Virus record (IMG/VR): IMGVR_UViG_3300029337_000248
Span: 1 to 19,378 of that record
Reading direction: 5' to 3' (one strand)
From: a virus
Taxonomy: Duplodnaviria; Heunggongvirae; Uroviricota; Caudoviricetes
DNA: 19,378 bases
Part shown: positions 935 to 16,471 of the stretch, one piece after another
How the letters are laid out: every line of letters starts with the position of its first letter
Numbering within the stretch: position 1 is the stretch's first letter
The notes under the pieces: generated by a model
Told to the model about the DNA's origin: nothing
What the model saw: the letters and a program-made list of their open reading frames with translations, nothing else
Database searches by the model: none
Program-made: the position numbers and the translations under genes

Positions 935-2620
935 GTGAATATAAACGTCGCCGAATTGTTAAATGGGAATTACATTCTGTTATTATTTGTGGTCCTCGCG
1001 CTTGGGCTATGTCTCGGAAAGTTACGACTTGGTTCGATCCAACTGGGTAATTCCATTGGCGTTTTAGTCGTATCGCTGTTATTAGGCCAACAACATTTCA
1101 GCATTAACACCGATGCGCTTAATCTTGGCTTTATGCTGTTTATTTTCTGTGTTGGGGTTGAAGCCGGACCGAACTTTTTTTCCATTTTTTTTCGCGATGG
1201 GAAAAATTACCTAATGTTAGCACTGGTGATGGTTGGCAGTGCGCTGGTGATCGCCTTAGGGTTAGGTAAGCTGTTTGGCTGGGATATTGGCCTGACGGCC
1301 GGTATGTTAGCAGGCTCTATGACGTCGACACCGGTTCTGGTCGGTGCTGGCGATACACTGCGTCATTCCGGCATGGAAAGCAGGCAGCTCTCACTGGCAC
1401 TGGATAATCTGAGCCTCGGGTATGCCTTAACCTATTTAATCGGTCTGGTGAGTTTGATTGTTGGTGCGCGTTACTTGCCGAAATTGCAGCATCAGGACTT
1501 ACAGACCAGCGCCCAGCAAATCGCCCGCGAACGTGGCCTGGACACTGATGCCAACCGTAAGGTTTATTTACCGGTGATCCGCGCCTATCGCGTCGGCCCG
1601 GAGCTGGTGGCCTGGACCGACGGCAAAAATCTGCGTGAACTGGGTATTTATCGACAAACCGGCTGCTACATTGAACGTATTCGACGTAACGGGATTCTGG
1701 CAAATCCAGACGGTGATGCCGTGCTACAAATGGGCGATGAAATAGCGTTGGTAGGCTATCCCGACGCCCATGCCCGACTCGATCCCAGCTTCCGTAACGG
1801 TAAAGAAGTTTTCGATCGTGACCTTCTCGACATGCGTATCGTCACTGAAGAAGTGGTCGTTAAAAACCATAACGCTGTAGGTAAACGTCTCGCACAACTG
1901 AAGTTGACCGATCACGGTTGCTTCCTTAACCGCGTCATTCGTAGCCAGATTGAGATGCCGATAGATGACAACGTCGTGCTTAACAAAGGTGACGTTTTAC
2001 AAGTCAGCGGTGATGCCCGTCGCGTAAAAACCATCGCCGATCGCATCGGCTTTATCTCGATTCACAGCCAGGTCACTGACCTGCTGGCATTTTGCGCCTT
2101 CTTTGTTATTGGGCTGATGATCGGGATGATCACCTTCCAGTTCAGCACATTCAGTTTCGGCATGGGGAACGCTGCCGGGTTGTTATTCGCCGGAATTATG
2201 CTGGGCTTTATGCGTGCTAACCACCCGACCTTCGGTTACATTCCGCAGGGTGCATTAAGCATGGTGAAAGAGTTCGGCTTGATGGTGTTTATGGCAGGCG
2301 TTGGTCTGAGCGCCGGTAGCGGTATTAATAACGGCCTGGGCGCGATTGGCGGTCAGATGTTGATTGCCGGATTGATTGTCAGTCTGGTGCCCGTGGTTAT
2401 CTGTTTCTTGTTCGGTGCTTATGTATTGCGAATGAACCGCGCGCTGTTGTTCGGCGCAATGATGGGCGCACGTACCTGCGCGCCGGCAATGGAGATCATC
2501 AGTGATACAGCTCGCAGTAACATCCCGGCGCTGGGCTATGCGGGCACCTATGCAATCGCCAACGTCCTGCTGACGCTGGCAGGGACAATCATCGTCATGG
2601 TATGGCCAGGATTAGGATAA
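935..2620 (+). CDS. ybjL: Putative transporter YbjL (AAE-family membrane protein with central soluble domains)
   Basis: 561 aa ORF with N- and C-terminal hydrophobic halves flanking a soluble central region; sequence ([20 protein letters not shown]...) and synteny with ybjM-grxA recognised from memory. Confidence 0.9.
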
Positions 2621-2726
2621 AACTGAAGTTGCCCTGAAAATGAAATTTTTTTGCACAACCGCAGAACTTTTCCGCAGGGCATCAGTCTTAATTAGTGCCA
2701 CTGCTTTTCTTTGATGTCCCCATTTT

Positions 2727-2772
2727 GTGGAGCCCATCAACCCCGCCATTTCGGTTCAAGGTTGATGGGTTT
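2727..2772 (+). terminator. Intrinsic terminator downstream of ybjL; probably the last host-type feature before the prophage end
   Basis: Perfect 10-bp stem CCCATCAACC / GGTTGATGGG with a structured loop, followed by TTTTTTGTT on the + strand; no U-run in the minus-strand reading. Confidence 0.6.
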
Positions 2773-2855
2773 TTTGTTGCCTGAAATTTATACCTTTTAA
2801 AATCATGATGTTAGAAGCACTGCTTTTTAACGATGGCGACAAAATGGCGGCAGCG

Positions 2856-3074
2856 TCAAAGAGAGAGCGCCACCTGTCCTGATTTCATTGGATGCGGCTG
2901 AACCGGATTTGACTCTTTTGGCGTTGCAATCGAACGAACAAAAGTTTCATGGGTAACAAAAGTATGGCTGCAGTTAATGTTCTGGCACTGGTTGTAACGC
3001 TCTTTGGTCAATGAAGATACCTGAAAACTGCTGCGAGTATGGGCGGCACTTCCACACAGTGGGCAAATCATCAT
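2856..3074 (-). CDS. ogr: Ogr/B-family zinc-finger late-gene transcription activator
   Basis: ~72 aa product from the internal Met (MMICPLCGSAAH...ERYNQCQNINCSHTF) carrying the CPLC...CQN.NC zinc-finger pattern of P2 Ogr / 186 B; immediately downstream of D as in P2. GGGGAG lies ~10 nt upstream of the chosen ATG. Confidence 0.85.
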   Translation of the reverse strand: MMICPLCGSAAHTRSSFQVSSLTKERYNQCQNINCSHTFVTHETFVRSIATPKESNPVQPHPMKSGQVALSL

Positions 3075-3164
3075 TTTTCGAGTTCTCCCCATTTTTGCTA
3101 AATTCACAATAATGATACCGTATTATTCCATTTTGCAAACTTAAAAGTTCTCCATTGCGAAGAA

Positions 3165-4265
3165 TCATTCCATTTCGAAATCATCAATCCTCACTTCAAG
3201 CTCCAGACTGGTCGTAAAACCGTTATCCGGGCTGACGGTATGTGTCAGAGTCGTAATGGTCCATTCCGCATCATCTATCGGCTGTTTAAAACCACTGACT
3301 TTCACTGGCATTTCCGTGTAGAGATCTGCCCGACCTTCCGCCAGTTGTAGCGAGAATGACGCAACGCCGCGTTGCAGGCGTTCCCACTGCATTTTCGCCG
3401 CTCGTTCGGCGTTGCTCCGGTTGGCATAAGTGCGATTAAGTACCAGCACGTTTTCATCCGTACCCACCAGGTAATCGCCCTGCTTCGCTTCCGGCTCTTT
3501 CGTCTGCTTCTTAGTCCTGCGCTTACGCTTCACCGTGGTGCTTTCTTTCTTCGAGGGTTCGCGAGTATGCAACCAGCTGGCAATTACGCCCGTGTAAGCT
3601 CCGCGATCTGCCAGGGTAAAGCGGTGACTGTCGCCGTCCTTACGTGTGATAGTGATCACCGGTAGTGGTTTACCGCTGGCGCTTTTACCCTGTCCCTGTC
3701 GGATGAATAACAGATTGCCATTTTTCACCGACGCAATAGCACCGTACTGGCGCGCCAGCCGCATCAGAAAACTGCCGTCACTCTCATTGGTCTGGTCTAA
3801 ATGTTCCACGGTTTTATCTGACAGGTCTTTACCCAATGCCATCTTCAGTTTGTGCCGCGCAGCTATTTCCTTCACCACTTCCCCAACGGTGGTCTTGTGC
3901 CACGACTTTTCACGGCGGGTATTCAGCGTTTCACGAAAATCAGCACTTCGCGCCCGGATAGTCAGGCGGTCCGGTGCGCCAGTGTGTTCAATCTCGTCCA
4001 CCGTGAATGTCCCTTTCGGGAAAAGCGGCTGCCCCTTCCAGCCCAGCGCCAGCGTAATGACCGCACCACGGCGCGGCAGCACGATTTTTCCGTCGGCGTC
4101 GTCCAGCTCCAGATCAAGCTGGTCCGCTTCAAAGCCCCGATTGTCCGTCAGCGTCAAACTCATCAGGCGGTTATCCAGCACAGTGGTGATATCCCTGCCC
4201 TCAATACTGATGCTGAATGCGGGAGTTTTGTTGCCTTTGTTAAGCAGTTCAGAGCTGAAATTCAC
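3165..4265 (-). CDS. D: Phage late control / tail protein D (P2 gpD family)
   Basis: 366 aa ORF, the last gene of the T-U-D order, read on the minus strand; size and sequence character fit P2 gpD (recalled ~387 aa). Confidence 0.85.
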   Translation of the reverse strand: MNFSSELLNKGNKTPAFSISIEGRDITTVLDNRLMSLTLTDNRGFEADQLDLELDDADGKIVLPRRGAVITLALGWKGQPLFPKGTFTVDEIEHTGAPDRLTIRARSADFRETLNTRREKSWHKTTVGEVVKEIAARHKLKMALGKDLSDKTVEHLDQTNESDGSFLMRLARQYGAIASVKNGNLLFIRQGQGKSASGKPLPVITITRKDGDSHRFTLADRGAYTGVIASWLHTREPSKKESTTVKRKRRTKKQTKEPEAKQGDYLVGTDENVLVLNRTYANRSNAERAAKMQWERLQRGVASFSLQLAEGRADLYTEMPVKVSGFKQPIDDAEWTITTLTHTVSPDNGFTTSLELEVRIDDFEME

Positions 4266-4747
4266 GACAGCAGCCCTCCCACCGTTTTACTGATATCGCT
4301 TAAAGCAGACGTTGCCATGTCCTGCAGATTATTCAGTTGCGCACTGAGATCACCGAACATATCGGACAGGGATTCATCCACCCGTTTGAGCGACAGGGTG
4401 AACTCAATCCGGCGCGGCATACCGTCGCGGAAAAACTCCGTTTTAGTCTGATTCAGTCCCTCAATCACATACATGCCATAAATCGTGCCGCTGCCTTCAA
4501 TCAGGGGCCATGCTTTCCCCTGTTCTGCCATCTGCTCCAGCGCCAGCAGCGACAGCCTGCCACCTGTTATCTCCGGCATAAGAACACCGGAAAGCGTCAG
4601 CATGTCGTTGTCCGGTCCCAGAAACTGCGTGGACGGACGTCGGTTTACCCGGCTGTTTGCCGCATGTCGCCAGTTGCGTTGATACTGCAGCTCCTGATAC
4701 GGCACGGTGCGCAGCATAAACACGTACAATCCCAGCACCATCATCAT
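4262..4747 (-). CDS. U: Phage tail protein U (P2 gpU family)
   Basis: 161 aa ORF whose stop overlaps the D start by 4 nt (ATGA), between the T fragment and D; size matches P2 gpU (~160 aa). Confidence 0.85.
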   Translation of the reverse strand: MMMVLGLYVFMLRTVPYQELQYQRNWRHAANSRVNRRPSTQFLGPDNDMLTLSGVLMPEITGGRLSLLALEQMAEQGKAWPLIEGSGTIYGMYVIEGLNQTKTEFFRDGMPRRIEFTLSLKRVDESLSDMFGDLSAQLNNLQDMATSALSDISKTVGGLLS

Positions 4748-5448
4748 GCGTCGTATCCCCCCTGATCGCTGTAGTTACTCCTGGCTTTTGCCTTCAACCT
4801 GCGTTCACGTTCATCAAGCTGGCGGGCCACCTCCCGCGCAATATCCTGCGCACTTTGTCCTGGCTGCGTCTGGATGATGATCTGCGTCGGTGCCTCAATC
4901 CTGTAAACGGGCGGCACAGTGGCTGCGCGACTCACAATTGCTTCTCCACCTTTCGCGGGAAGTGCCAAAGGGTGCAACGGTGGAAGCTCTGCTGGTGCGG
5001 CAGCAACGCCCATCATTCCGGCAACAACGGCAGCCAGTGCAGCTGTATTTCTCCGGCTAGTCACATTTGCCGGGCCGTTAACAATTTCCGGCCCGTTTTC
5101 ACCGACGATGCCAAACTGCCCGCGCGGGATATACCCGCCGCTGTCATACATCCCCGCAAAGCCATATCCCCATGATGGAAAACCACCCGATGGCATCATC
5201 ACTTTACCGTCTGCATTCACCGTCGCAGGTTGCTGACGCGTCACGCTTTCCGGCAGTTTTGCCTTTGCGGCCTCTTTACTGACAATGCCGAGCTTCTCCA
5301 GCAACCAGGAAACGCCGGATTTCAGGGAGTCCAGCGGATGCATGACCATATTCAGCCCTTCCGCCAGTGCCTCCCCGAATCTCCGCCCCATTGCCGCTGC
5401 ACTCTGCAGTTCGGCAGAGGTCGACTTAACGGGCGTCAACCGTAACAA
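4744..5448 (-). pseudogene. T: Tail tape-measure protein T, C-terminal fragment only (5' part deleted)
   Basis: 234 aa ORF directly upstream of U in the T-U-D order; P2 gpT is ~815 aa from memory, and the reading frame runs straight into the terminase fragment on the opposite strand with no E/E' or other tail genes upstream. Confidence 0.7.
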
Positions 5449-6865
5449 AGGCCCGCGCCGTCAGCCGGAAAAGAACGTTTTCACCGATGAACAGATTGAG
5501 AAGCTGGAAGAAATCTTCCATTCCTCCATGTTCAACTACCAGCGCCACTGGTGGGAAGCCGGAAAAACCAACCGCATCCGCAACCTGCTGAAGTCACGCC
5601 AGATCGGCGCGACCTTCTATTTTGCCCGTGAAGCCCTGATTGACGCCCTGCTAACCGGGCGTAACCAGATTTTCCTTTCCGCCAGCAAGGCTCAGGCCCA
5701 CGTCTTTAAGCAGTACATCATCGACTTCGCCAAAGAAGTGGAGGTGGAGCTGAAAGGCGATCCGATGGTGCTTCCTAACGGGGCCACGCTTTACTTCCTC
5801 GGCACCAATGCCCGCACTGCCCAGAGTTATCACGGCAACCTGTATCTGGATGAATATTTCTGGATACCGAAATTCCAGGAGCTGCGCAAAGTGGCTTCCG
5901 GTATGGCTATTCACAAGAAATGGCGACAAACCTATTTTTCCACGCCATCCAGCCTGACTCATAGTGCTTATCCGTTCTGGTCCGGTGCGCTGTTCAACCG
6001 TGGGCGCAACAAAGCCGATAAGGTGGACATCGACCTGTCCCACAGCAATCTGGCCCCCGGCCAGCTGTGCGCCGACGGGCAATACCGCCAGATAGTCACC
6101 GTGGAAGATGCGGTGCGCGGCGGCTGTAACCTGTTCGACCTTGACCAGTTGCGCATGGAGTACAGCCCGGACGAATACCAGAACCTGCTGATGTGCGAGT
6201 TTGTGGACGATCTCGCGTCCGTGTTTCCGCTCAGCGAGCTGCAGGCGTGCATGGTGGACAGTTGGGAAGTCTGGACCGACTTTCATGCTCTGGCCCTGCG
6301 CCCATTTGGCTGGCGCGAAGTGTGGATCGGTTATGACCCGGCAAAAGGTACGCAGAACGGCGACAGCGCCGGATGCGTGGTGGTGGCACCGCCAGCCGTG
6401 CCAGGCGGTAAGTTTCGCATTCTCGAGCGTCACCAGTGGCGCGGGATGGACTTCCGTGCCCAGGCGGACGCAATCAAAAAACTGACCGAGCAGTACAACG
6501 TGACCTACATCGGCATCGACTCAACCGGCGTTGGTCACGGGGTTTACGAGAACGTGAAAGCGTTCTTTCCTGCCGTCCGGGAGTTTGTCTACAACCCCAA
6601 CGTTAAAAACGCCCTGGTACTCAAGGCCTACGACATTATCAGCCACCGCCGTCTGGAGTTTGACGCCGGACACACCGACATAGCGCAGTCCTTTATGGCA
6701 ATCCGTCGCTCCACCACCGCCAGTGGCAACCGCCCGACCTATGAAGCCAGCCGCAGCGAAGAAGCCAGCCACGCCGATCTGGCATGGGCAACGATGCACG
6801 CACTGTTTAACGAACCGCTGCAGGGCGAATCCGCCAATACCAGCAATATTGTGGAGATTTTTTGA
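5449..6865 (+). pseudogene. P: Terminase large (ATPase/nuclease) subunit P, N-terminally truncated
   Basis: ORF 5285-6865 translates to a terminase-like protein (C-terminal nuclease-type segment ...YIGIDSTGVGHG...) and is followed by portal Q with a 4-nt overlap. Its first ~55 codons overlap the T fragment on the other strand, so the homologous part starts near 5450-5475, well short of the ~590 aa I recall for P2 gpP. Boundary is approximate. Confidence 0.7.
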
Positions 6866-7890
6866 TGGGAAAGAGTAAGAAAAACCGCGCAGCGGCGATG
6901 AATCAGATCCAGCATAAAAGCCAGACTTCAGCCGAAGCATTCAGCTTCGGCGATCCCGTTCCTGTTCTGGACCGTCGCGAACTGCTGGACTATGTGGAAT
7001 GCGTACAGATGGACCGCTGGTATGAGCCGCCTGTGAGTTTCGACGGCCTGGCGCGAACATTCCGCGCCGCCGTACACCACAGCTCACCGATTGCAGTAAA
7101 GTGCAACATTCTGACCAGCACCTATATCCCTCACCCACTGCTCAGCCAGCAGGCTTTTTCACGTTTTGTGCAGGACTATCTGGTATTTGGTAACGCCTAC
7201 CTGGAGAAACGCACGAACCGCTTCGGTGAAGTTATCGCCCTTGAACCTGCGCTGGCAAAATACACCCGACGCGGGTTAGACCTGGATACCTACTGGTTTG
7301 TGCAATACGGCATGACTACGCAGCCGTATCAGTTCACGAAAGGCAGCATCTTTCATCTGATGGAACCGGATATCAACCAGGAGATCTACGGCCTGCCCGG
7401 TTATCTTTCTGCCATTCCGTCAGCCCTGCTCAACGAGTCCGCCACGTTGTTCCGCCGTAAGTATTACATCAACGGCAGCCATGCAGGCTTCATCATGTAC
7501 ATGACCGATGCCGCGCAGAATCAGGAGGATGTGAACAACCTCCGCAACGCGATGAAAAGCGCCAAAGGTCCAGGCAACTTCCGCAACCTGTTTATGTACT
7601 CACCTAACGGCAAAAAAGACGGGCTTCAGATCATCCCATTGTCAGAAGTCGCGGCGAAGGATGAATTTCTTAACATCAAGAACGTGAGTCGGGATGACAT
7701 GATGGCAGCGCACCGCGTGCCGCCGCAAATGATGGGGATTATGCCGAATAATGTTGGGGGGTTTGGGGATGTGGAGAAAGCAAGTAAAGTGTTTGTACGA
7801 AACGAACTTATACCATTACAAAAACGCTTAGGAGAGATAAATGAATGGCTTGATAAAAAAATAATAGAATTTGAAATATATTCATTCTGA
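6862..7890 (+). CDS. Q: Portal (capsid vertex) protein Q
   Basis: 342 aa ORF immediately downstream of P with overlapping stop/start, matching the P-then-Q order and ~344 aa size of P2 gpQ. Confidence 0.85.
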   Translation: MMGKSKKNRAAAMNQIQHKSQTSAEAFSFGDPVPVLDRRELLDYVECVQMDRWYEPPVSFDGLARTFRAAVHHSSPIAVKCNILTSTYIPHPLLSQQAFSRFVQDYLVFGNAYLEKRTNRFGEVIALEPALAKYTRRGLDLDTYWFVQYGMTTQPYQFTKGSIFHLMEPDINQEIYGLPGYLSAIPSALLNESATLFRRKYYINGSHAGFIMYMTDAAQNQEDVNNLRNAMKSAKGPGNFRNLFMYSPNGKKDGLQIIPLSEVAAKDEFLNIKNVSRDDMMAAHRVPPQMMGIMPNNVGGFGDVEKASKVFVRNELIPLQKRLGEINEWLDKKIIEFEIYSF

Positions 7891-7947
7891 TACATTTACA
7901 TAACTTAATAGGACATCCATCGCTCAACACATAATAAGAAAAAAACT

Positions 7948-7965
7948 ACGGCACTACCGTGCCGT
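7948..7965 (-). terminator. Intrinsic terminator for the three-gene cargo operon (possibly bidirectional with Q)
   Basis: Stem ACGGCAC / GTGCCGT with loop TACC; in the minus-strand reading the hairpin is followed by AGTTTTTTTCTTATT, and it lies 10 nt past the stop of the 7975-8472 gene. Confidence 0.6.
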
Positions 7966-7974
7966 AACAAATTA

Positions 7975-8472
7975 TCACTTTAAGAATTTTTTCTGATAAG
8001 ACTCATCAATTAGAGATTTAATTATTTTCGCCCTTTTTGACACTAATACACTAATTCTTGTCCTTTGACTTTTATCATACTCCTGTGCTTTTTCAATATT
8101 AGATGTAGCATCTTTGAATAAATCAGCAATCAAAGGTTTATAGTCACCTTCGATATTAATGCGTTGTTTTAGATGATTCAACCACCGCTCGGTCTCCGCA
8201 AGAAGTGCTGTTATCTCATTTTGAAATGACATTGCATCAATTTCTTTTGAATCTCCCGGTATCCAAAACTTTCTTGATGCAGATTCAATTTCCTTTAAAT
8301 TATCTGAAACATTTTTTACAATTGCCCATGTTTCACTCCTCTTTTGCAACGCACGGGAGTTTCTATAAACAAAAACCCAACCAATCAAGGCTGTTAGAAT
8401 TGCAATCACACCTGAACTAGCAAGGTATTGTAATAACCGCAGATAAACCGGAAGTTCATCCATGAACATCAC
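7975..8472 (-). CDS. Single-pass membrane protein of unknown function (candidate effector), third gene of the cargo operon
   Basis: 165 aa ORF; one predicted transmembrane helix near the N-terminus (LLQYLASSGVIAILTALIGWVFVY), then a charged, likely helical domain; start overlaps the stop of the upstream gene by 4 nt; AT-rich codon usage. Confidence 0.75.
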   Translation of the reverse strand: MMFMDELPVYLRLLQYLASSGVIAILTALIGWVFVYRNSRALQKRSETWAIVKNVSDNLKEIESASRKFWIPGDSKEIDAMSFQNEITALLAETERWLNHLKQRINIEGDYKPLIADLFKDATSNIEKAQEYDKSQRTRISVLVSKRAKIIKSLIDESYQKKFLK

Positions 8473-8789
8473 TCCTTTTTAGCATCAGAAATATATCCCC
8501 ATATACTATCCTTGAGGAAATCCAAATCAGTAAATATTTTTAATTTTTTCCTAATTATAGCTTTATCTATATTATTTGTTCTATAAAGTCCACCAAACGC
8601 CTCTTCCAAGAATGAAGAACCATAACCCATAGCACCATCAAGGTACACGTGCACCTCATCATAATCTTGGATGGCTTTCAAAAGATACTTTTCACGGAAA
8701 CGTTGTCCATTATCAGGACCATCCTCATCATAGCGGCCATAGGGAACATCTGAAAAATCTTCAGCAACATGTATCTCTTTGATTTTCAT
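8469..8789 (-). CDS. Small acidic protein, candidate STAS-like (anti-sigma-antagonist-like / DUF4325-like) partner, second gene of the cargo operon
   Basis: 106 aa ORF translationally coupled (4-nt overlaps) to both neighbours. Size and a ...LDGAMGYGSSFLEEAF... segment with adjacent serines resemble the phosphorylatable region of STAS/SpoIIAA-like proteins. The family call is by eye and tentative. Confidence 0.7.
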   Translation of the reverse strand: MKIKEIHVAEDFSDVPYGRYDEDGPDNGQRFREKYLLKAIQDYDEVHVYLDGAMGYGSSFLEEAFGGLYRTNNIDKAIIRKKLKIFTDLDFLKDSIWGYISDAKKE

Positions 8790-9853
8790 TCAGCACCTCT
8801 CAAACTTACATTCCATTGAATAAGGGTTCCACCTATGGAGTATGGCAGATCAAATTTATCTTCAACATTATTTTCAGCATCATAAGAATATCGTCCCATT
8901 CCACTAAAAATATGTAACTGCCCCTCAGGGTTATCTACAACATACCTTTTCATATCAGGTAATCCTTTACCATGCTTCTGACTATTCATTCTTGTCTCAC
9001 CATACTGTACAGCCGCGAATATTTTATCAGAATCCGTCTTAGGATTAAATATCTGAGCGATAAATGTGAAAAAGTCTTTTTTAACCAATGTAACTGGGAT
9101 ACCTTCTCCCATATCATACACCATCAAAAATAGTTGTTCTTCGACTTTGTGTGCCAATATCCACCATCTTTTACCAATGTCCTCAATAAATTCAGAGAAC
9201 TGTTCTTCATTTGAATACGCATGTAGACCAACATTGCTAATAGATTCAGTTAAGGCTGCATATAATTTCACACCATCCGAAGCGGAAATCTTACCTTCAT
9301 AAATGGTATCTTTTATATAACGTAGAATATTTTTAATTTTTTGTCTTGCTTCGGCACTTTCATGATCATCTCTAGTTTTGCCTGCAACAGCGGAAACAAT
9401 TTCCATTGAATTAAGCTTATCTGCAGCTATACGCTGAAACCCTGTAATCCCCCAAATACCACATATTTTAAACCAGTTATTTGCCCTGGATGAACCGCAC
9501 GTAGTAATAGAAATTATATTTTTATCTTTTGTTTGCCTTTGTAAAAAGTCAATATGTGCATACAATACGATTACTGCACATGCTTTCAGAGATTTTGTAT
9601 TTCTGAAATCTATTAAAATTTTCTCACCATCATTGATGTAATCTCTGATTAAAGTGATAAACTCTATAAATAGTTTGTAATTTTTAGTATTAAATAAGTC
9701 CAATGACGCAGGCGCGGGTATTCTCACACGAGAGAATACCCGCATGGGCTGTAGCATCCGTCTTCCACCAGAAAGCTTTCTTGACTCCCGCTTCGCAATC
9801 TTCCTTGCTCTGATCAAAGAATGTTCAATTTGTTCTTCAGTTAGCCGCTTCAT
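8786..9853 (-). CDS. GHKL-type (histidine-kinase-like / anti-sigma-kinase-like) ATPase with an unassigned ~190 aa N-terminal domain, first gene of the cargo operon
   Basis: C-terminal half carries Bergerat-fold motifs in order: N-box TESISNVGLHAY (E-x3-N-x3-H-[GA]-Y as in SpoIIAB/RsbW), G1 box YDMGEGIP (DxGxG), G2 box HGKGLPD, G3 GGTLIQW. Start placed at the internal Met (MKRLTEEQ...) because GAGGAAAGG precedes it; the longer ORF reaches 9898. Confidence 0.75.
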   Translation of the reverse strand: MKRLTEEQIEHSLIRARKIAKRESRKLSGGRRMLQPMRVFSRVRIPAPASLDLFNTKNYKLFIEFITLIRDYINDGEKILIDFRNTKSLKACAVIVLYAHIDFLQRQTKDKNIISITTCGSSRANNWFKICGIWGITGFQRIAADKLNSMEIVSAVAGKTRDDHESAEARQKIKNILRYIKDTIYEGKISASDGVKLYAALTESISNVGLHAYSNEEQFSEFIEDIGKRWWILAHKVEEQLFLMVYDMGEGIPVTLVKKDFFTFIAQIFNPKTDSDKIFAAVQYGETRMNSQKHGKGLPDMKRYVVDNPEGQLHIFSGMGRYSYDAENNVEDKFDLPYSIGGTLIQWNVSLRGAE

Positions 9854-10000
9854 ATCCTTTCCTCGATAGTTGTTGAAGCTTATCAGTTCACGCAACAACT
9901 ACAAACATCTACCTGCTATCTTAAAGCAACAATTTGAAAGAACATTGAAAATCATAGTATCTGTTTGTAAACAAACGACTGTTTCTATACCTTGCGCGCG

Positions 10001-10019
10001 CTCGTATCCCCGCCACGCC
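10001..10019 (-). other. cos-like cohesive-end site
   Basis: Minus-strand reading GGCGTGGCGGGGATACGAG; the first 12 nt match the cohesive-end sequence I recall for 186 (GGCGTGGCGGGGAAAGCAT) and P2 (GGCGAGGCGGGGAAAGCAC). Located in the A-to-Q interval where cos is expected. Confidence 0.6.
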
Positions 10020-10050
10020 TGCCCGCTTTATGTAGTAGTTTTCATGCACC

Positions 10051-10151
10051 TGCATGACATGAGCAAAAGCCCGCCAGTTCTGGCATGTCTTAGCCAAACC
10101 GATCCTCAAACGATCATGCGAACCCATGCAGCATAGACATGCATGACATGA
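10051..10151. repeat. Direct repeats of TGCATGACATGA (10051-10062 and 10140-10151) flanking cos, within a CATG-rich cluster
   Basis: Two exact 12-bp copies 89 bp apart, read directly from the sequence; TGGCATGTC also occurs twice (10081-10089 and 10252-10260). Confidence 0.7.
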
Positions 10152-10201
10152 AAATCGGTCAAACCTTGAAACCAGTCATAAATATGAGCCAGCTTAATAC
10201 A

Positions 10202-10387
10202 CACTAAATAGCTGCGTCTAATACTGCTACACCTGCCGTTTACTGACATGTGGCATGTCGCGTAAGGACAACATACTGTAGGCCAGATACAGCAGGATCA
10301 GGCGAAGAAAACGGCCCCACGCCTTACCCAGCAAGGGCCAAGGGCTAACCGAAAGTGGAGCATTATTCCGCGCAGTTATTTAGTGTC
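10202..10387. repeat. ~186 bp segment bounded by 16-bp inverted repeats (ACACTAAATAGCTGCG ... CGCAGTTATTTAGTGT, 15/16 match)
   Basis: Inverted repeat read directly from the sequence; the interior is non-coding, relatively GC-rich and holds a small hairpin (GACATG-tgg-CATGTC). Nature unknown: structured RNA or MITE-like relic. Confidence 0.5.
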
Positions 10388-10492
10388 AGCTCTTTTGAGC
10401 TAAAATCAAGTTTCAACATGAGGGTCTGTGCAGGCTTTCTCATCCCGCTAATTTATACAGCACACCTATATGGCTATGAGTTTGTCATGCCC

Positions 10493-10524
10493 GCTAATCC
10501 TGTTAGGATTAGCCTTGTTTTTTT
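10493..10524 (+). terminator. Terminator-like hairpin immediately upstream of the lipoprotein gene
   Basis: Perfect 9-bp stem GCTAATCCT / AGGATTAGC with loop GTT, followed by CTTGTTTTTTT; ends 17 nt before the ATG at 10542. Confidence 0.5.
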
Positions 10525-10541
10525 ACGATTGGGATAGGGAT

Positions 10542-11348
10542 ATGAAGAAATTAACTGGCGTAATTGCTTTTGCTCTGCTGCTTACTGCTTGTGACAAACC
10601 GAAGATCGATGCATCAAGCGATCAGTCGATGAAAGAGTCCATTCAAAAAGTAAGAGAGTCCTTACCTGCAGATAAAAAAGCTCAGTTTGATGATGCAGTT
10701 AAAGTCGTTGCCTTTAGCCAAATCAACATGAGAGAGCTAATGCAGGCTGGAACGTCTTCTGGGGACGTCTACGAAACAAAAATTAAGTCAGCGTTGGAAG
10801 GTAAAACTGGTGATGAGGTTATAAATTACGCACAAACTATTCGCCTTGAGCGTGAGAAGAGAGAGAAAGAACAGGCTCTGCAAGAAATAAAAGAACTGGA
10901 AGCCAAACAAACCTCTGCAACACAGGCTGCGGAAAAAATGAAAGCCTTCAAGGTCGAACGTTCCCGTTTTTATTTCCAGAAAGAGGATTACGGCAATGAT
11001 CAGCCAATTCTGGATATTAGCGTTGAAAACGGAACAGACAAAGCGGTTGCCAGAGTATTCTTCAAAGGAGTTATTGCCAGCCCAGGAAGAAGCGTCCCTT
11101 GGTTCTCTGACGTCTTCAACTATAAAATTTCTGGAGGTCTGGAACCAGGTGAGAAAGCCAACTGGAAATTAGCCCCTAATAGATACTCTGATTGGGGAAA
11201 ACTTAAAGTTCCGGCTGATGCTATATTTACCGTCACAGTCATTGGCCTTGAAGACGCAGATGGGAAATCGATCTATGGTGACGCCGAGTTTTCAGAACGC
11301 GATGCTGACAGACTGAATCAACTTAGAGATAAGTACCTTTCTAAATAA
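10542..11348 (+). CDS. Lipoprotein of unknown function (~268 aa), candidate superinfection-exclusion or lysogenic-conversion protein
   Basis: Start chosen at MKKLTGVIAFALLLTAC with a lipobox (LLTAC); the track ORF starts upstream at 10470 but that part covers the terminator hairpin. Central lysine/glutamate-rich predicted coiled coil, then a C-terminal globular region. Confidence 0.75.
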   Translation: MKKLTGVIAFALLLTACDKPKIDASSDQSMKESIQKVRESLPADKKAQFDDAVKVVAFSQINMRELMQAGTSSGDVYETKIKSALEGKTGDEVINYAQTIRLEREKREKEQALQEIKELEAKQTSATQAAEKMKAFKVERSRFYFQKEDYGNDQPILDISVENGTDKAVARVFFKGVIASPGRSVPWFSDVFNYKISGGLEPGEKANWKLAPNRYSDWGKLKVPADAIFTVTVIGLEDADGKSIYGDAEFSERDADRLNQLRDKYLSK

Positions 11349-11456
11349 TCAAAATTAAAGCTACTTCAGCATAGTCCCTGAGAATATATATCAGGGACTA
11401 CCAAATCACGGCAGATACCCCTTAGTTAAATAATGCTAAACGCTTAGAAAGAGACC

Positions 11457-11756
11457 ATGAAACGTATAACTTTCTCCTTTACGTTAGTAGCAATCATCAT
11501 AGCCTTAGCTGGATGTGCTTTGCCAGATAAAGACGGCGACTTCGGAGCTTATGTTCATGCCTGTCAGCAATATGCATACGGAAAATCCTATGCCTTTGAG
11601 AATAGAGACTTCGCGTATAAGGTCTGTAAGGACGCGGCGAAACTGTGGAGTGAAGAAGTTCCTGGCTATATCATCAGGCAAATTCAACTACATCCTGAAA
11701 TACCCAGCGAAGAAATTAAATATGCAGCCATGGCCGGCTCTTTGGGTAACAACTAA
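11457..11756 (+). CDS. Small lipoprotein of unknown function (99 aa)
   Basis: Signal peptide with lipobox (IALAGC), mature ~80 aa with 4 Cys; co-directional with the upstream lipoprotein gene. Confidence 0.7.
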   Translation: MKRITFSFTLVAIIIALAGCALPDKDGDFGAYVHACQQYAYGKSYAFENRDFAYKVCKDAAKLWSEEVPGYIIRQIQLHPEIPSEEIKYAAMAGSLGNN

Positions 11757-11770
11757 ATCAACTTATGAGA

Positions 11771-11793
11771 AAGGGGCTTAATGCCCCTTTTCG
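11771..11793. terminator. Bidirectional intrinsic terminator between convergent genes
   Basis: Stem GGGGC / GCCCC with loop TTAAT; flanked by T-rich sequence on the + strand (TTTTCGG) and, more weakly, on the minus strand (TTTCTCAT). Confidence 0.6.
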
Positions 11794-11823
11794 GTTCCCT
11801 TATCAAGTCCTAACGAAACAAGC

Positions 11824-12010
11824 TCAACTGATTACATCCATCGACCTACTGTATTCATGGCTTCGAATTTTCGCCATCAACTCATCAGTCAATTCAGAAA
11901 CCCACTGCAGAGCTAGCCCCTTCTCTTCATCACTACACTCACTAGCCGCTACAAGCTTAAGAAAAAAATCAATGCGCTGGAGCTTCAAAGACTCCAAAAA
12001 ATAGTCCTGC
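11824..12010 (-). CDS. Small hypothetical protein (62 aa) downstream of replication gene A
   Basis: Strong RBS (AGGAGGAAAG) directly before ATG (MQDYFLESLK...); the track ORF extends to 12114 but lacks an RBS at its first Met. Sits where P2 carries orf91/tin/old. Confidence 0.6.
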
Positions 12011-12165
12011 ATCTTTCCTCCTATAACACCATACGCAATACTGTACATATAACCACTGTTTATATTTACAGTATATAATAATCTTACTGATGTAAAACGT
12101 TTTTTTACGTTCATCAGCCTGATATGCCTGGTATTATTAAGAGCACGAATTGTTAACCCGCGTGA

Positions 12166-14580
12166 TTAATACAGGTTCCGCCACTTATCATCTTCCTGCA
12201 AACGCTGGTTCCGATAGAAGATACGCAGGCCTGCTCCTGACGGAATACTGCCACCGCAAAGGAGCAAATCGACCTCTTTCTCGCTGCCATCAAATCCTCT
12301 GGACTTCAGTTCATAGACGAGCTGCTGACGCTGATACTCTGTAATTCGCTGTTTGTAGTCTTTACGCCGTTTCGGTTTAACCAGGCGCAATCTTGCTGCC
12401 AGTTCCCGGCGCTCTTTTTTGCTCATACTGTGCAGGTAATCGTGCAATTCCTTGTCATCCATGCAGGTAATGTCCGTTCTGGTATCCCCATCTGCTGATT
12501 CATCTTTCTCATGTTGGTTCAAATTTTCAGCAAGGGGACAGTTATTGCCACGAGTCCAAGGGGCGCAAGCGCCCTGGTCGGCTGCCGCCTCCTGAACGTC
12601 AACGGCTTTACGAACCATTTTCCACTTCACTGCATGAGTGCAGATCTTGCCCTCTGCAATGGGTGACCAGATGCCATAAATACGAATGCCGTGATCGCCA
12701 TAGGCGGTCGGCTCTTCGTTGATTTCATAAGCGGTTCTGATGAGGTGATATTTACGGGGAACCAGTACGCCGCCCTGTTTCATGATGTAGGTGGCAAAAC
12801 AACCAGCATCAGCAGCAGCCAGAATGGCATCAAGACGCGGGTTATCCAGTACCGGCGCACCTGCTTTTTTGTCACCCTGTTGCCTTGCCGCCTGACCAGC
12901 CAGCAAGCGAAGTTCACGGTAAGCCTGACGCCCCGGAATACCAAAGAAGCGGAATTGCTGAACACGATGCAGAGACGCCCAGGCATTCACGTATTCAGCG
13001 TTATCACGCAGAGATTTACCCGTTTCCTTGCTGATCTCGCCAACCAGACCACGACCGTCAATGTTCTTACTGATATATTTCGCGATGTAGCTTGTCGGCG
13101 TTCCTTTGCGCGGGTTAATCAACTCAGACTTAAAGCGCGGCCCAGTGTTATTGCCCAGCTCCTCGCGGTCTTCACGGATGGCAAACTTACGCAGTAATGC
13201 AGTGATGGCACGGCGGTCTTTTTTGCGCATGAAACACAACAGGTGCCAGTGAACTGTGCCATCATGATGCGGCTCAGCCACCCGCACGCCATACCAGCGC
13301 AACCCGGCTTTGTGCATCGCCTTACGAAATGCAGCAAACATGCCGACCAGATAATCGCTGCTTTGTCTTACCGTCGCGTTTGTCCAGGTCGGGTTTGGTC
13401 TGCCGTTATTTAGCGTGGAATGGAAACGCGACGGACAGGTGATAGTGTAGAAAACGGCGCAGTCACCGCGCATTTCCGCGATAAGCTCCAGACCTTTAAC
13501 ACAGGCCATCATCTCATTGCGGCGATGCGCAGGGTTGCTGCTGCTGGCGTTTACCACATCCTCCATGTCCAGCGTGTCGCCGTCTTCGTTCACCAGTTCA
13601 TGAGAACGGAAAAACTCCAGCGACTTACGGCGCTGCTCACGTTTATGCATCACGGCTTCATAGCTGACATAAGGAGATGCTTTTTTGCTGACCAGGCAAA
13701 CAGCGCGCAACTGCTCTTCCCGCCATTCGCAACGCATCTTCCATAATTTCCGATACCACCAGTCGGCGCACAACATACGCGCCAGCGAACCCGGAATGAG
13801 TTCATAGGGCACGGGTTTGCGGCGGTTTCTTTTCCGACGGAGTTGCTCAAACGCAGGTGGGATGACATCCAGACGCAGGGTTTCCGCTGCCACCTTTTCC
13901 CATGTCTTGCGGATTTCTTCTGGCTTAACGTCATCGGTGGCATACAAATCACCACAAGCTGCATCAAGGCACATACTCATATGCGCAGCTACCAGGGTGG
14001 ACAGGCGTTTCACCTGATCCTGACTCATTTCAGGCAGGATCAGCAGGCCGTCCAGCCCTTCATGGCTTGCCATAAAGCGAAAAGATGCAGATAGCTGACT
14101 GTCGCGTACATGCTCCAGTCGTTCCAGACATGGCTTAATCGTCTCACGTAAATAGCGGGAATAAGCCTTTGGCCTGCCCAGGCTGCTGAAGTATTCAATA
14201 CGTTGCATCAGCGGCTTGCTGATATGGGAAGGCTGGGCGTTGACGTCCGCCAGAATGACCATGTCTGAATTAAAACGCTGCTGCTCATGCGCCAGCTTTG
14301 CCCGGCTAATGAGCTTATCCTGCTCCATTTCGCGCTGGACAGGATCACGTGATTCATTAAAGAAATAACGCTCCCAGACCTGATCACTCAGTGCCTCGCG
14401 GCGCAACTGTTCCTGCTCGTTATCGGCAGCGTACAGAGTGATCAGGTTTGAAAGCGTAGAAACCGGCGCAACTTCCGCCGGGTCCAGATAAGGGTTAATG
14501 GCCTTTTTCGGGCTGTTCCATGAGAATGCTGCGGCAGCCTCGTTAAAGCCGCAGCAGTTGTTCATATCGGCATGACTCAT
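12166..14580 (-). CDS. A: Replication initiation protein A (rolling-circle replication endonuclease, P2 gpA / 186 A family)
   Basis: 804 aa ORF containing the rolling-circle active-site tyrosine motif ([16 protein letters not shown]); position at the end of the early operon matches P2/186. Confidence 0.9.
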
Positions 14581-15434
14581 GCACGTACTCCGTACACGGC
14601 AGAACTATCCACGCCACGCGAATAATCAAATCCCATCCAGCAGCGCGGCCCGGAAACAGCAATGATTTCTGTTGCTGATTTACCCTCGCCAGCTGCCACA
14701 CCGATGCTGCGTTTTACCTTGATATAGTGGTGAGTAAAATTGCGATACAGCGAACGGATCAGGGATGTGTCACTGTTAGAAACAATGACCGGATGTCCTT
14801 CTGATGACCGATGTTCAAGAACGGATGCCAGGTGATACTGGTCATCTTCAGTGAAACCATCAGTGTGATAACCGGAAAACGTACCGTCATATGGCGGATC
14901 GCAATACACCACATCTCCCGCCTTCAACATCGTCAGCGTTTCATCAAAGCTGGCGCAGATAAACGTTGCTCGCTGGGCTTTTTCTGCAAATGTGCGAAGT
15001 TCTTTTTCAGGGAAATACGGATTTTTATAATTACCGTAGGGAATGTTGAAATGCCCGCTCTTGTTATAGCGACATAAACCACGGTAACCGTGACGATTGA
15101 GATACAGGAAATATACCGCTTTCATGAAATCAGTAATTTCAGTTGAGCAGTTAAACTCCTGCCTTATGTTGTAATAAGCCACCTCCCTGTTTGCGATCTC
15201 AAATAAAACTCTGGCGCGAGATATAAACGATTCACAATCAGCGGCAACCTTTTTATAGAGGTTGATTAAATCAGGATTAATATCCGCAACCAGATAGCTG
15301 GGATAATCCGTTTCCATCATCACAGCACAGGAACCCGCGAAAGGTTCAACCAGTCGCGGGCCAGCAGGAAGGTATTTTTTCAGTTCTGGCATAATGGCGG
15401 TTTTATTTCCCGCCCATTTCAGGATGGTGCTCAT
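14577..15434 (-). CDS. DNA adenine methyltransferase (Dam-like, N6-adenine class)
   Basis: Motif I region ILKWAGNK...FAGSCAV and catalytic DPPY ([10 protein letters not shown]). Start set at the internal Met (MSTILKW...) preceded by GGAGGTG; stop overlaps the A start (ATGA). Confidence 0.85.
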
Positions 15435-15658
15435 ACAGCACCTCCGTTGTAATGTTTGCCTTTCAGTTCTGCGATTTCCTGACAGGTAATGCAAAGCTGC
15501 ACTCCCGGAATGGCGCGGCGTCGTGCTGGCGGAATTGGCGCTTCACATTCAATGCAAAGTACGCGTGACACGCCCGGTGATTTGGCACGGGCTGCACGGA
15601 TATGGCGCTGGCGTTCTTCTTCAACGCGCTGCTGTACGAGATCCATTGCATCAGCCAT
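15431..15658 (-). CDS. TraR/DksA-family C4 zinc-finger protein
   Basis: 75 aa with CxxC...CxxC (CIECEAPI...CITCQE); a small protein of this type is typical of the P2/186 early region; stop overlaps the Dam start. Confidence 0.75.
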   Translation of the reverse strand: MADAMDLVQQRVEEERQRHIRAARAKSPGVSRVLCIECEAPIPPARRRAIPGVQLCITCQEIAELKGKHYNGGAV

Positions 15659-15897
15659 TAGTGGATCTCCTGCGCTTCGTTCTGGATTGCTTCAGCAGTC
15701 ACGCGCAGCAGTTCTGCCGCTTCCACGTGGTTTAGCTGGCGGGATGAGATATAACACGCCAGGCTATCAAGGCGAGCAGCCATTGCTTCAGCCCTTGCCC
15801 GGCGTTCTTCCAGACGAGCCTCTGTCAGTAAAATATTAAGCCCTGCGTCATCCGGTCCGGTTTTAGTCATGAGGGTTTCAATATTACGCATAATCAA
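15658..15897 (-). CDS. Hypothetical phage early protein (79 aa)
   Basis: ORF in operon register with its neighbours in the early (minus-strand) operon; no recognisable motif. Confidence 0.55.
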   Translation of the reverse strand: MIMRNIETLMTKTGPDDAGLNILLTEARLEERRARAEAMAARLDSLACYISSRQLNHVEAAELLRVTAEAIQNEAQEIH

Positions 15898-15958
15898 TTC
15901 TCCTGAATTTAGATAAAGGGATGCCCGGCGGGTTTACGCCATTAATTTCATTAGTTGG

Positions 15959-16300
15959 TTAATTCGGCATGGTTAGCCGTCTGGGAAATAAGCTCACCAC
16001 TGCACGAAAATGATTCATTGCTTTAATCAACTCCCGCTTTTCGTCAGTGGTCAGCTCATTAATGCTGATGCTATGACGTTCAGCTGGAATTTTTGCCATA
16101 AAGAATATGGCAGCCAGTGCCCTTTTATTTTGTTCATTATTGATATCCCATGGATCACGCATATCTTTAATAAACCGCTCAAGCTCTGACTCAATATTCA
16201 GGCCAAAAACTTTCGCCCTTAACTCCGCAATGTGATTAAGTCCATTCAGGCGTTCACCGGGGCTTAATGGAACAGTTGCTGCAGTGCCTTCAATAGCCAT
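15959..16300 (-). CDS. Hypothetical phage early protein (113 aa)
   Basis: ORF with GGGGGA RBS ~6 nt upstream of ATG; lies where 186 carries early genes such as fil/dhr, but no specific assignment is possible by eye. Confidence 0.6.
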   Translation of the reverse strand: MAIEGTAATVPLSPGERLNGLNHIAELRAKVFGLNIESELERFIKDMRDPWDINNEQNKRALAAIFFMAKIPAERHSISINELTTDEKRELIKAMNHFRAVVSLFPRRLTMPN

Positions 16301-16464: not shown

Positions 16465-16471
16465 AAGCACC

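What the first reader, a model, noticed from the sequence alone, without database searches (positions are those of the whole stretch)
7948..9990. Candidate undescribed three-gene defence module (GHKL ATPase, STAS-like protein, single-pass membrane protein) in the prophage cargo locus
Three minus-strand genes (8786-9853, 8469-8789, 7975-8472) are joined by 4-nt stop/start overlaps and end at an intrinsic terminator, so they form one operon. They lie between portal Q and cos, in the A-cos-Q variable interval where P2 carries tin/old and which published work describes as a hotspot for anti-phage systems. The domain combination, a sensor-like protein with a GHKL ATPase domain, a small STAS-like partner and a small membrane protein, resembles partner-switching modules (RsbW/RsbV, SpoIIAB/SpoIIAA) with a membrane effector added. 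I cannot match this architecture to any named defence system I know. Working hypothesis: an abortive-infection module in which the ATPase senses infection, modifies or releases the STAS-like protein, and the membrane protein kills the cell.
Basis: partly seen in the sequence, partly recalled or inferred. Interest (0 to 1): 0.9.

Follow-up and report, generated by a model that had tools for sequence, protein, structure and literature searches.

The report
Kinase–STAS–membrane protein candidate defence operon
A three-gene operon carried as foreign cargo in a decayed P2-like prophage pairs a serine-kinase/STAS phospho-switch, homologous to that of the anti-phage system VapKSC, with a small membrane protein instead of a nuclease; it is a widespread but untested candidate defence system.

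Summary
Three tightly coupled minus-strand genes (A 8786-9853, B 8469-8789, C 7975-8472) end at a strong terminator. They form a 35% GC island between portal gene Q and cos of a P2-like prophage.

- **A** is a basic N-terminal helix, a STAS domain and a SpoIIAB/RsbW-type GHKL serine kinase.
- **B** is a DUF4325 STAS protein with an invariant serine (S59) at the canonical phospho-acceptor position.
- **C** is an N-out/C-in single-pass membrane protein with a cytoplasmic four-helix bundle.

The A-B-C order is kept in every informative locus examined (52 of 53 fetched loci; one contig ends after B), across six phyla. These include P2 and P4 hotspots and a CBASS/RM island. PADLOC has no model for any of the three proteins.

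The module is not entirely undescribed. Rousset 2022 lists the arrangement in its hotspot tables. DefensePredictor scores gene A as a predicted novel defence gene. The 2026 VapKSC system has a homologous kinase and DUF4325 partner with a PIN toxin.

My best reading is a VapKSC-like, phosphorylation-gated abortive-infection system with a membrane effector. I rate it a new variant of a known kind. Defence activity, trigger and toxicity are all untested.

The parts
8786..9853 (-). Gene A: 355-aa STAS plus GHKL serine-kinase protein (VapK-like sensor kinase)
9749..9853 (-). A residues 1-35: conserved, strongly basic N-terminal helix; candidate nucleic-acid or membrane contact (function inferred)
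   Evidence: 14 K/R against 4 D/E in the first 45 residues. Helix 6-27 in the model. The 'MKKL...RR' pattern is kept in distant homologues.
9374..9748 (-). A residues about 36-160: internal STAS domain
8789..9286 (-). A residues about 190-355: Bergerat-fold (GHKL) kinase domain of the SpoIIAB/RsbW type
8469..8789 (-). Gene B: 106-aa DUF4325 STAS-like protein (VapS-like switch)
   Evidence: PF14213 E 3.5e-12, 46 bits against cut-off 23. VapS is in the same Pfam family, E 2.7e-17. The B-family HMM hits VapS at E 1.2e-5. A B-like ORF follows A in all 53 loci.
8613..8618 (-). Codons for B S58-S59 in the invariant 'GSSFLEEAFGGL' motif: predicted phospho-acceptor
   Evidence: S59 is kept in at least 90% and S58 in at least 60% of 48 distinct B sequences. 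The HMM alignment puts VapS S48 on S58 and CapS S54 on S59. The P4-type B has GRSF, so only S59 is universal.
7975..8472 (-). Gene C: 162/165-aa single-pass membrane protein with a cytoplasmic four-helix bundle (predicted effector)
8359..8424 (-). C transmembrane helix (residues about 17-38 of the 165-aa form)
   Evidence: Kyte-Doolittle 2.19 over 19 residues. 40 of 47 distinct homologues have a segment of at least 1.5. 42 of 47 have more K/R after the segment than before it, which implies N-out/C-in.
7935..7968 (-). Intrinsic terminator closing the operon
   Evidence: 10-bp stem with 5 G-C pairs, a 4-nt loop and a T run. Also visible directly in the sequence.
9854..10006 (-). Upstream non-coding region of the operon, up to cos; promoter not located
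   Evidence: No sigma-70 consensus match in this stretch under the scan's rules. It contains a GTTTGT-TT-ACAAAC inverted repeat at about 9964-9977. Function unknown.
10007..10019 (-). cos-like core GGCGTGGCGGGGA that bounds the cargo site
   Evidence: Single match, none in 200 shuffles. The resemblance to the P2/186 cohesive-end sequence comes from my own knowledge. Rousset 2022 places the hotspot next to cos, between gpA and gpQ.

Best explanation
The operon is a self-contained, horizontally mobile anti-phage module. It belongs to the kinase-STAS-effector kind that VapKSC exemplifies, with a membrane effector in place of the PIN nuclease.

Proposed mechanism:
1. In the uninfected lysogen the small STAS protein B binds the cytoplasmic four-helix bundle of the membrane-anchored protein C and keeps it inactive (inferred).
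2. Infection produces a signal that activates the STAS-GHKL kinase A. By analogy the signal could be a nucleic-acid species sensed through A's STAS domain or its basic N-terminal helix (inferred).
3. A phosphorylates B on the conserved serine at the start of STAS helix 2, S59 or possibly S58 (inferred).
4. Phospho-B lets go of C. C self-associates and damages or depolarises the inner membrane, which stops the infected cell before phage release (abortive infection) (inferred).

Shown here: the domain identities, the conserved catalytic and acceptor residues, the topology of C, the rigid three-gene synteny and the defence-hotspot contexts. Every step of the mechanism, and the defence phenotype itself, is inferred.
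For: **Architecture.**
- A is a STAS plus SpoIIAB/RsbW-like kinase with intact ATP-binding motifs.
- B is a DUF4325 protein, like VapS.
- B's 'GSSF' serine is invariant and aligns with the experimentally defined phosphosites VapS S48 and CapS S54.

**Homology to the characterised system.**
- The A profile matches VapK over both domains: HHalign 91%, E 9e-7, 250 columns.
- The A-family HMM scores VapK at 32 bits.
- In VapKSC the STAS protein is the antitoxin, phosphomimetic S48E releases the toxin, and the operon protects against phage Bas42.

**Synteny and coupling.**
- A, B and C occur together, in that order, in every informative locus fetched through A or C alone.
- These loci come from Gamma- and Alphaproteobacteria, Verrucomicrobiota, Planctomycetota, Bacteroidota and Binatota.
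- The genes overlap or abut.
- One metagenome-assembled genome (MAG) has B and C in a single ORF (L048).

**Topology of C.** The bundle faces the cytoplasm, where B and A are.

**Context.**
- P2 gpQ-cos hotspot in E. coli, Enterobacter and Serratia.
- P4 psu-integrase hotspot in Citrobacter and in E. coli.
- Next to type III CBASS and type I RM in Wohlfahrtiimonas.
- Flanked by a type IIG-like methylase and a DEAD/MZB giant helicase in L003.
- Neighbours in distant phyla hit PADLOC RM, IetA, GajB-like and candidate (PDC) models, plus integrases and resolvases.

**Other.**
- GC is 35% against 54-61% in the neighbouring phage genes.
- DefensePredictor gives gene A log-odds of about 5, labelled 'predicted novel defence gene'.
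Against: - No experiment exists for this family.
- B and VapS share no BLASTP-detectable similarity. C is unrelated to VapC, so the B-C interaction is assumed, not shown.
- The aromatic residue that contacts ssDNA in VapK (F54) aligns with a non-conserved Ser/Lys position in A. The trigger may therefore differ.
- A three-gene 'hypothetical, STAS-like, hypothetical' candidate (VPUS) was scored not defensive in the DefensePredictor screen. I could not establish whether it belongs to this family or to vapKSC.
- The single B-C fusion comes from a MAG and could be an assembly error.
- The neighbourhood evidence is qualitative. I computed no enrichment statistic.
Confidence: 0.5

Rival explanations
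1. Classical partner switch. The kinase domain of A, acting like an anti-sigma factor, sequesters the helical cytoplasmic domain of C. Unphosphorylated B competes for A and frees C. A's phosphorylation of B resets the switch. Infection would act by lowering ATP or blocking the kinase, so that B stays unphosphorylated and C is released.
Against: There is no PP2C phosphatase in the operon or the prophage to regenerate unphosphorylated B. In the only characterised homologous system the STAS protein, not the kinase, binds the toxin. The one B-C fusion, if real, points to a B-C contact.
Confidence: 0.15
2. C is the sensor or anchor, not the killer. The triad would then be a membrane-tethered signalling module that detects envelope events such as phage DNA entry or membrane damage. 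The output would be A's kinase activity on other host or phage proteins, or exclusion at the membrane without cell death.
Against: The bundle is predicted to be cytoplasmic, not periplasmic. This fits a target or effector better than an extracytoplasmic sensor. Four-helix-bundle matches are non-specific, and de novo designed bundles score highest. No other output gene is conserved next to the triad.
Confidence: 0.12
3. Not an anti-phage system. The triad would be an addiction (toxin-antitoxin-like) or lysogenic-conversion module that stabilises mobile elements or tunes host stress physiology, and rides in cargo sites without protecting against phage.
For: The module survives here in a prophage that has lost its morphogenesis genes. 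The STAS-containing three-gene candidate VPUS was not defensive in the DefensePredictor panel, although its family membership is unresolved. Only about a third of the hotspot cargo that Rousset 2022 cloned scored as defensive.
Against: The same cargo sites are strongly enriched for validated defence systems. The homologous VapKSC does protect. Neighbours in unrelated genomes include CBASS and RM. DefensePredictor scores gene A positive. Toxin-antitoxin-like and abortive-infection roles are not mutually exclusive.
Confidence: 0.15

Closest known systems
VapKSC (VapK STAS-GHKL kinase, VapS STAS protein, VapC PIN nuclease; Chambers et al., EMBO J 2026, PMC13373217)
   Same: - Both are three-gene operons in the order kinase, small STAS protein, effector.
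- A matches VapK over the STAS and GHKL domains (HHalign 91%, E 9e-7).
- B and VapS are both Pfam DUF4325 and keep a serine at the aligned phospho-acceptor position.
- Neither operon encodes a phosphatase.
- Both are found near other defence genes.
   Different: - The effector here is a single-pass membrane protein with a four-helix bundle, not a PIN nuclease.
- A has an extra basic N-terminal helix and is about 55 residues longer.
- VapK's ssDNA-contact residue F54 is not conserved in A.
- B and VapS are too diverged for BLASTP.
- VapKSC has phage-protection data; this triad has none.
CapK/CapS transcriptional controllers of immune operons (same paper)
   Same: Both pair a STAS-GHKL kinase with a STAS substrate carrying a conserved serine. 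CapS S54, in 'DSSF', aligns with B S59, in 'GSSF'. The A-family HMM detects CapK weakly (15 bits).
   Different: CapK has an N-terminal HTH and CapS a C-terminal wHTH that binds DNA. A and B have neither. CapKS sits upstream of a separate immune operon that it regulates. Here the pair is followed only by C and a terminator.
RsbW-RsbV and SpoIIAB-SpoIIAA partner-switching modules
   Same: Both have the kinase fold and the N-box motif 'E..SN...HAY'. The STAS fold of the partner and the position of the acceptor serine also match.
   Different: There is no sigma factor and no PP2C phosphatase. The kinase carries its own STAS domain. The output is a membrane protein.
Rousset et al. 2022 hotspot catalogue: P4 arrangement no. 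69 'HATPase_c | DUF4325, 1 TM in protein 3', and the P2 hotspot entry with WP_052928646
   Same: It is the same family. The P4-type proteins match A, B and C at 28%, 49% and 27% identity, with HMM E-values of 2e-54, 5.5e-45 and 1.9e-6. The P2 table lists this window's own proteins A and C.
   Different: It is only a catalogue row. It has no name, no functional note beyond the TM remark, and no test that I could find.
Membrane effectors of abortive-infection systems (for example RexB and the transmembrane effectors of CBASS, Thoeris and retrons); comparison from general knowledge
   Same: Both are small membrane proteins encoded last in a defence operon and presumed to act by membrane damage.
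   Different: No sequence or specific fold relationship was found. C has one TM helix plus a soluble bundle, rather than a multi-TM or beta-barrel effector.

Membership tests
VapKSC | First gene encodes a STAS plus GHKL kinase homologous to VapK | tested here: met
VapKSC | Second gene encodes a small STAS (DUF4325) protein with a conserved Ser/Thr at the start of helix 2 | tested here: met
   B matches PF14213 at 46 bits and VapS at 63 bits. S59 is kept in at least 90% of 48 sequences and aligns with VapS S48 or CapS S54 to within one residue.
VapKSC | Third gene encodes a VapC-like PIN nuclease toxin | tested here: not met
   C has no PIN hit in Pfam, NCBIfam or PADLOC. Its model is a TM helix plus a four-helix bundle.
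VapKSC | Aromatic ssDNA-contact residue at the STAS-GHKL interface (VapK F54, CapK W68) | tested here: inconclusive
   VapK F54 (numbering from the authors' AF3 file) aligns with A S88, a variable S/A/I/N/R/K position. At 22% identity the alignment could be off by a few residues.
VapKSC | Kinase-, serine- and toxin-dependent protection against phage | not testable with these tools
   Requires cloning and plaque assays.
CapK/CapS regulators | HTH in the kinase and a wHTH DNA-binding domain in the STAS protein | tested here: not met
   No HTH family appears in A or B. A's N-terminus is a single basic helix. B is 106 aa and consists of the STAS domain only.
CapK/CapS regulators | Located immediately upstream of a separate immune operon that it controls | tested here: not met
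   B is followed by C and then a terminator. The same three-gene unit is found in 52 other loci, with no conserved fourth gene.
RsbW/RsbV and SpoIIAB/SpoIIAA partner switching | GHKL serine kinase with N, G1 and G2 boxes, plus a single-domain STAS partner with an acceptor serine | tested here: met
   Phosphotransfer itself was not tested.
RsbW/RsbV and SpoIIAB/SpoIIAA partner switching | A sigma factor as the sequestered target, and a PP2C phosphatase that resets the STAS protein | tested here: not met
   Neither is in the operon, in the annotated intact prophage, or conserved next to the triad elsewhere.
Pfam DUF4325 (PF14213) | Score above the gathering threshold | tested here: met
   46.3 bits against a cut-off of 23.
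Any system in PADLOC-DB v2.0.0 | A profile hit to a component of a known or candidate defence system | tested here: not met
   No family at E<=1 for A, B or C. DefenseFinder's current models could not be run.
P2 cos-proximal defence hotspot cargo (Rousset 2022) | Variable genes between gpA and gpQ next to cos in a P2-like phage | tested here: met
   The gene order is Q, triad, cos core, DUF6694 gene, gpA. The same proteins appear in the paper's P2 table.

The most novel reading that the evidence does not exclude
The triad founds a large, phylogenetically broad family of phosphorylation-gated membrane-effector immune systems: 1371 or more 50%-identity clusters of the kinase at E<=1e-30, across at least six phyla. 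Its kinase would sense a trigger other than the ssDNA sensed by VapK/CapK, perhaps through the family-specific basic N-terminal helix. Its TM-anchored four-helix-bundle protein would be a new type of cell-killing effector, released from a STAS 'antitoxin' by serine phosphorylation.
Probability: 0.35. Interest if true: 0.7.

Novelty: new variant of a known kind. Interest (0 to 1): 0.58.

Why it matters
**If the operon protects against phage.** The STAS-GHKL kinase plus DUF4325 pair would be shown to be a portable sensor-switch cassette that bacteria and their mobile elements couple to unrelated effectors: a repressor domain in CapS, a PIN nuclease in VapKSC, a membrane protein here. That is the same modular logic as in CBASS or retrons. 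It would add serine phosphorylation of a STAS 'antitoxin' as a general way to arm abortive infection.

**Practical consequences.** The family is common in P2 and P4 hotspots of E. coli, Salmonella, Klebsiella, Enterobacter and Serratia. It also reaches Planctomycetota and Verrucomicrobiota. PADLOC does not detect it, so genomes that carry it are currently scored as lacking a defence at that hotspot.

**If it does not protect.** It would still be a well-defined example of hotspot cargo with another role.

Tried and rejected
- **Library scans.** PADLOC, NCBIfam and PDB sequence searches of A, B and C gave nothing useful.
- **B against VapS.** BLASTP gave no alignment. The link rests on shared Pfam membership and an HMM alignment.
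- **Phage records.** No phage genome record carries the operon at megablast level.
- **Locus scan.** A1 worked.
- **Fold search on C.** It returned only generic helical bundles, so I dropped the idea of naming its effector type from structure. The weak holin PHROG hit (E 0.006) covers only the TM helix, and I disregard it.
- **ssDNA-contact residue.** I tried to transfer it from VapK and it is not conserved in A.
- **The VPUS candidate.** I tried to identify the non-defensive DefensePredictor candidate.
  - Its accessions are not in the stored part of the tables.
  - Exact look-ups of the VapK sequence failed, once because the PDF text was wrong and once for unknown reasons.
  - A distant blastn with the Citrobacter triad found only the same 20 E. 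coli genomes.
  - At 1871 bp, VPUS fits vapKSC (about 1863 bp of coding sequence) about as well as this triad (1879 bp), so it is unresolved.
- **Other named systems.** I considered CapK/CapS-type regulation of a downstream operon and rejected it, because there are no HTH domains and no downstream operon. The new P4 systems Bandua, Aernus, Toga, Reve and Crouga are described with other domain contents.
- **Promoter.** No sigma-70 consensus promoter was found directly upstream of A.
Full report
**1. The observation**

- A: 8786-9853, 355 aa from an ATG with a good ribosome-binding site.
- B: 8469-8789, 106 aa.
- C: 7975-8472, 165 aa from GTG. RefSeq annotation uses the ATG at 8463, giving 162 aa.

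A and B overlap by ATGA. B and C overlap by 4 nt or 1 nt, or are 5 nt apart, depending on the start chosen. A 10-bp hairpin with a T run follows at 7968-7945. The operon has 35-36% GC, against 54-61% in the terminase and portal genes beside it.

It lies between portal gene Q (6862-7890) and a cos-like core at 10007-10019. Replication gene A is at 12166-14580. Rousset et al. 2022 define this cos-proximal gpA-gpQ interval as the P2 defence hotspot. Near-identical DNA occurs in 20 of 5426 complete E. coli genomes, always chromosomal, and in no phage record. The exact proteins are also common in Salmonella.

**2. What the proteins are**

*Protein A.* Pfam gives only a sub-threshold HATPase_c hit. 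Alignments of 26 and 62 homologues keep E203, N207, D247, G249, G295 and G297 invariant. H211 and L298 are kept in at least 90%. G342, T343 and W347 of the C-terminal 'GTLIQW' motif are also invariant. The N box reads 'TESISNVGLHAY', which from my own knowledge is the signature of RsbW- and SpoIIAB-type serine kinases.

The AlphaFold model (pLDDT 80.5) matches:

A is therefore a STAS domain fused to an anti-sigma-type kinase. It is preceded by a family-specific basic helix, with 14 K/R in the first 45 residues.

*Protein B.* B is a clear DUF4325 member. Its motif 'GSSFLEEAFGGL' is the most conserved part of the family, and S59 is present in at least 90% of 48 distinct sequences.

**3. Is the triad a unit?**

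I fetched loci through A or C alone, so the presence of the other genes is a fair test.
- Twelve loci came from protein look-ups.
- Forty-one came from a scan of one genome per species, using a pattern in A.

In every locus A is followed at once by a B-like ORF and then a C-like ORF. The only exception is a contig that ends after B. No fourth gene is conserved.

The loci come from Gamma- and Alphaproteobacteria, Verrucomicrobiota, Planctomycetota, Bacteroidota and Binatota. A profile search of 1.84 billion cluster representatives finds 3992 relatives of A at E<=0.001 and 1371 at E<=1e-30, nearly all 340-400 aa long. One Binataceae metagenome-assembled genome (MAG) encodes B and C as a single ORF (L048). 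This is suggestive of a B-C contact, but it is a single unverified case.

**4. Context**

- The triad occupies the Q-cos site of P2-like prophages in E. coli, Enterobacter and Serratia.
- It occupies the psu-integrase site of a P4-like satellite in Citrobacter.
- In Wohlfahrtiimonas it lies next to a type III CBASS (CD-NTase, HORMA, TRIP13, exonuclease), a type I RM and an integrase.
- In a GC-rich metagenome contig it lies between a type IIG-like methylase and a DEAD/MZB helicase of more than 2000 aa.
- Among 128 ORFs lying within about 1.7 kb of the triad in 45 loci, PADLOC profiles detect type I, II and IIG RM components, IetA, a GajB-like helicase, TRIP13 and several candidate (PDC) proteins. 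Pfam detects integrases and resolvases.

This last result is qualitative, and I did not compute an enrichment.

**5. What is already known**

PADLOC-DB v2 has no hit for any of the three proteins, and I found no named system with this composition. The module is still not unknown.

- *Rousset 2022.* The supplementary P2 hotspot table lists WP_052928646 (A) and WP_130723475 (C) with a DUF4325 protein in NZ_CP036202. Those three proteins belong to the same families: 28%, 49% and 27% identity, with HMM E-values of 2e-54, 5.5e-45 and 1.9e-6. They occur on hundreds of contigs in Escherichia, Citrobacter, Hafnia and Proteus.
- *DefensePredictor (Science 2026).* It lists WP_052928646.1 as a 'predicted novel defence gene' with log-odds of about 5. 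The same paper tested a three-gene candidate called VPUS ('hypothetical, STAS-like, hypothetical', 1871 bp) and scored it not defensive. I could not establish whether VPUS belongs to this family or to vapKSC.
- *Chambers et al. (EMBO J 2026).* This paper is the most relevant.
  - CapK (HTH-STAS-GHKL) phosphorylates the repressor CapS on a conserved STAS serine in response to ssDNA.
  - The derived three-gene system VapKSC consists of VapK (STAS-GHKL), VapS (a small STAS protein) and VapC (a PIN toxin).
  - VapS is the antitoxin, the phosphomimetic S48E releases VapC, and the operon gives about 100-fold protection against phage Bas42.

**6. Relationship to VapKSC**

With the published sequences:
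- VapS is a DUF4325 protein like B.
- The A profile aligns with VapK across both domains (HHalign 91%, E 9e-7). The A-family HMM scores VapK at 32 bits and CapK at 15 bits.
- The B-family HMM aligns VapS S48 with B S58 and CapS S54 with B S59. The P4-type B has 'GRSF', so S59 is the universally kept serine.

Three differences are real:
- C is not a PIN nuclease.
- B and VapS have no BLASTP similarity.
- VapK F54, the proposed ssDNA-contact residue (numbering checked in the authors' AF3 file), aligns with a variable, non-aromatic position in A.

A also has a basic N-terminal helix that VapK lacks. The triad is therefore a sister family that shares the sensor-switch pair. It is not a member of VapKSC.

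**7. Most likely mechanism**

By homology of the kinase and STAS pair, and by analogy for the rest:
1. B holds the cytoplasmic bundle of membrane-anchored C inactive.
2. Infection activates A.
3. A phosphorylates B at S59.
4. C is released and damages the membrane, which aborts the infection.

The parts, motifs, topology, synteny and contexts are shown here. Phosphorylation, the B-C interaction, C toxicity, the trigger and the defence phenotype are inferred. I give this model 0.5.

The rivals are:
- a classical partner switch in which A sequesters C (0.15);
- C as a sensor or anchor with another output (0.12);
- a non-defensive addiction or conversion module (0.15).

**8. Verdict**

'Undescribed' has to be tempered, and the mechanism is better framed on VapKSC. 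I rate it a new variant of a known kind: a widespread, PADLOC-invisible, experimentally untested candidate with a clear set of decisive experiments. Interest 0.58.

Noticed in passing
window 1-5448 and 5285-6865: The P2-like prophage is a deletion remnant. Window 5427-19378 is collinear (97% identity) with an intact prophage. To the left of 5427 lie the 3' part of the tape-measure gene (4744-5448), gpU (4262-4747) and gpD (3165-4265), then the host genes ybjL-like (935-2620) and ybjM (288-665). The capsid, lysis, baseplate, fibre and sheath genes are missing, and terminase P lacks about 110 N-terminal codons. Twenty-nine complete E. coli genomes show tape-measure and terminase genes adjacent, but none matches this junction as one continuous alignment: each is two pieces spanning more DNA than the query.
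   Followed up: partly
window 10470-12114: A second cargo block lies on the other side of cos, in the position of P2 tin/old. It holds a DUF6694 lipoprotein gene (10470-11348, +) and two small ORFs (11457-11756 + and 11824-12114 -), at 42-44% GC. Function unknown.
   Followed up: no
L048:1991-2932: In a Binataceae metagenome-assembled genome the B-like and C-like proteins are encoded as one 313-aa ORF with a linker of about 30 residues. This is either a natural B-C fusion, which would imply physical interaction, or an assembly or frameshift artefact.
   Followed up: partly
window 7975-8463 (protein C residues 67 and 120): C evolves fast: 10-17% identity for most distant homologues, with a mean column identity of 26-33%. 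It nevertheless keeps an invariant Trp ('YW') at the end of the long first helix and a nearly invariant Thr in a 'TGGxF' loop motif. This could be a binding site, or even a second phospho-acceptor.
   Followed up: no
L014:7309-7836, L040:7223-7828: Some C homologues (Pseudoalteromonas, Kiloniella) carry a second hydrophobic helix at the C-terminus, so the effector's membrane topology varies within the family.
   Followed up: no
window 8469-8789 (protein B) against phrog_5816: B matches only the last 100 positions of a 441-position PHROG profile. This suggests that some phages encode a larger protein with a C-terminal DUF4325 domain, possibly a fused kinase-STAS form.
   Followed up: no
L003:105-2933 and 6324-12029: In a GC-rich metagenome contig the triad sits between a methylase-like protein of about 940-976 aa (NPPW motif) and a DEAD/Helicase_C/MZB protein of more than 2100 aa. 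This resembles Druantia-type components. The source's gene caller missed the B and C genes there.
   Followed up: no
window 9964-9977 (minus strand): An inverted repeat GTTTGT-TT-ACAAAC lies about 110 nt upstream of gene A, between the operon and cos. It could be an operator or part of the packaging region. No consensus sigma-70 promoter was found next to it.
   Followed up: no
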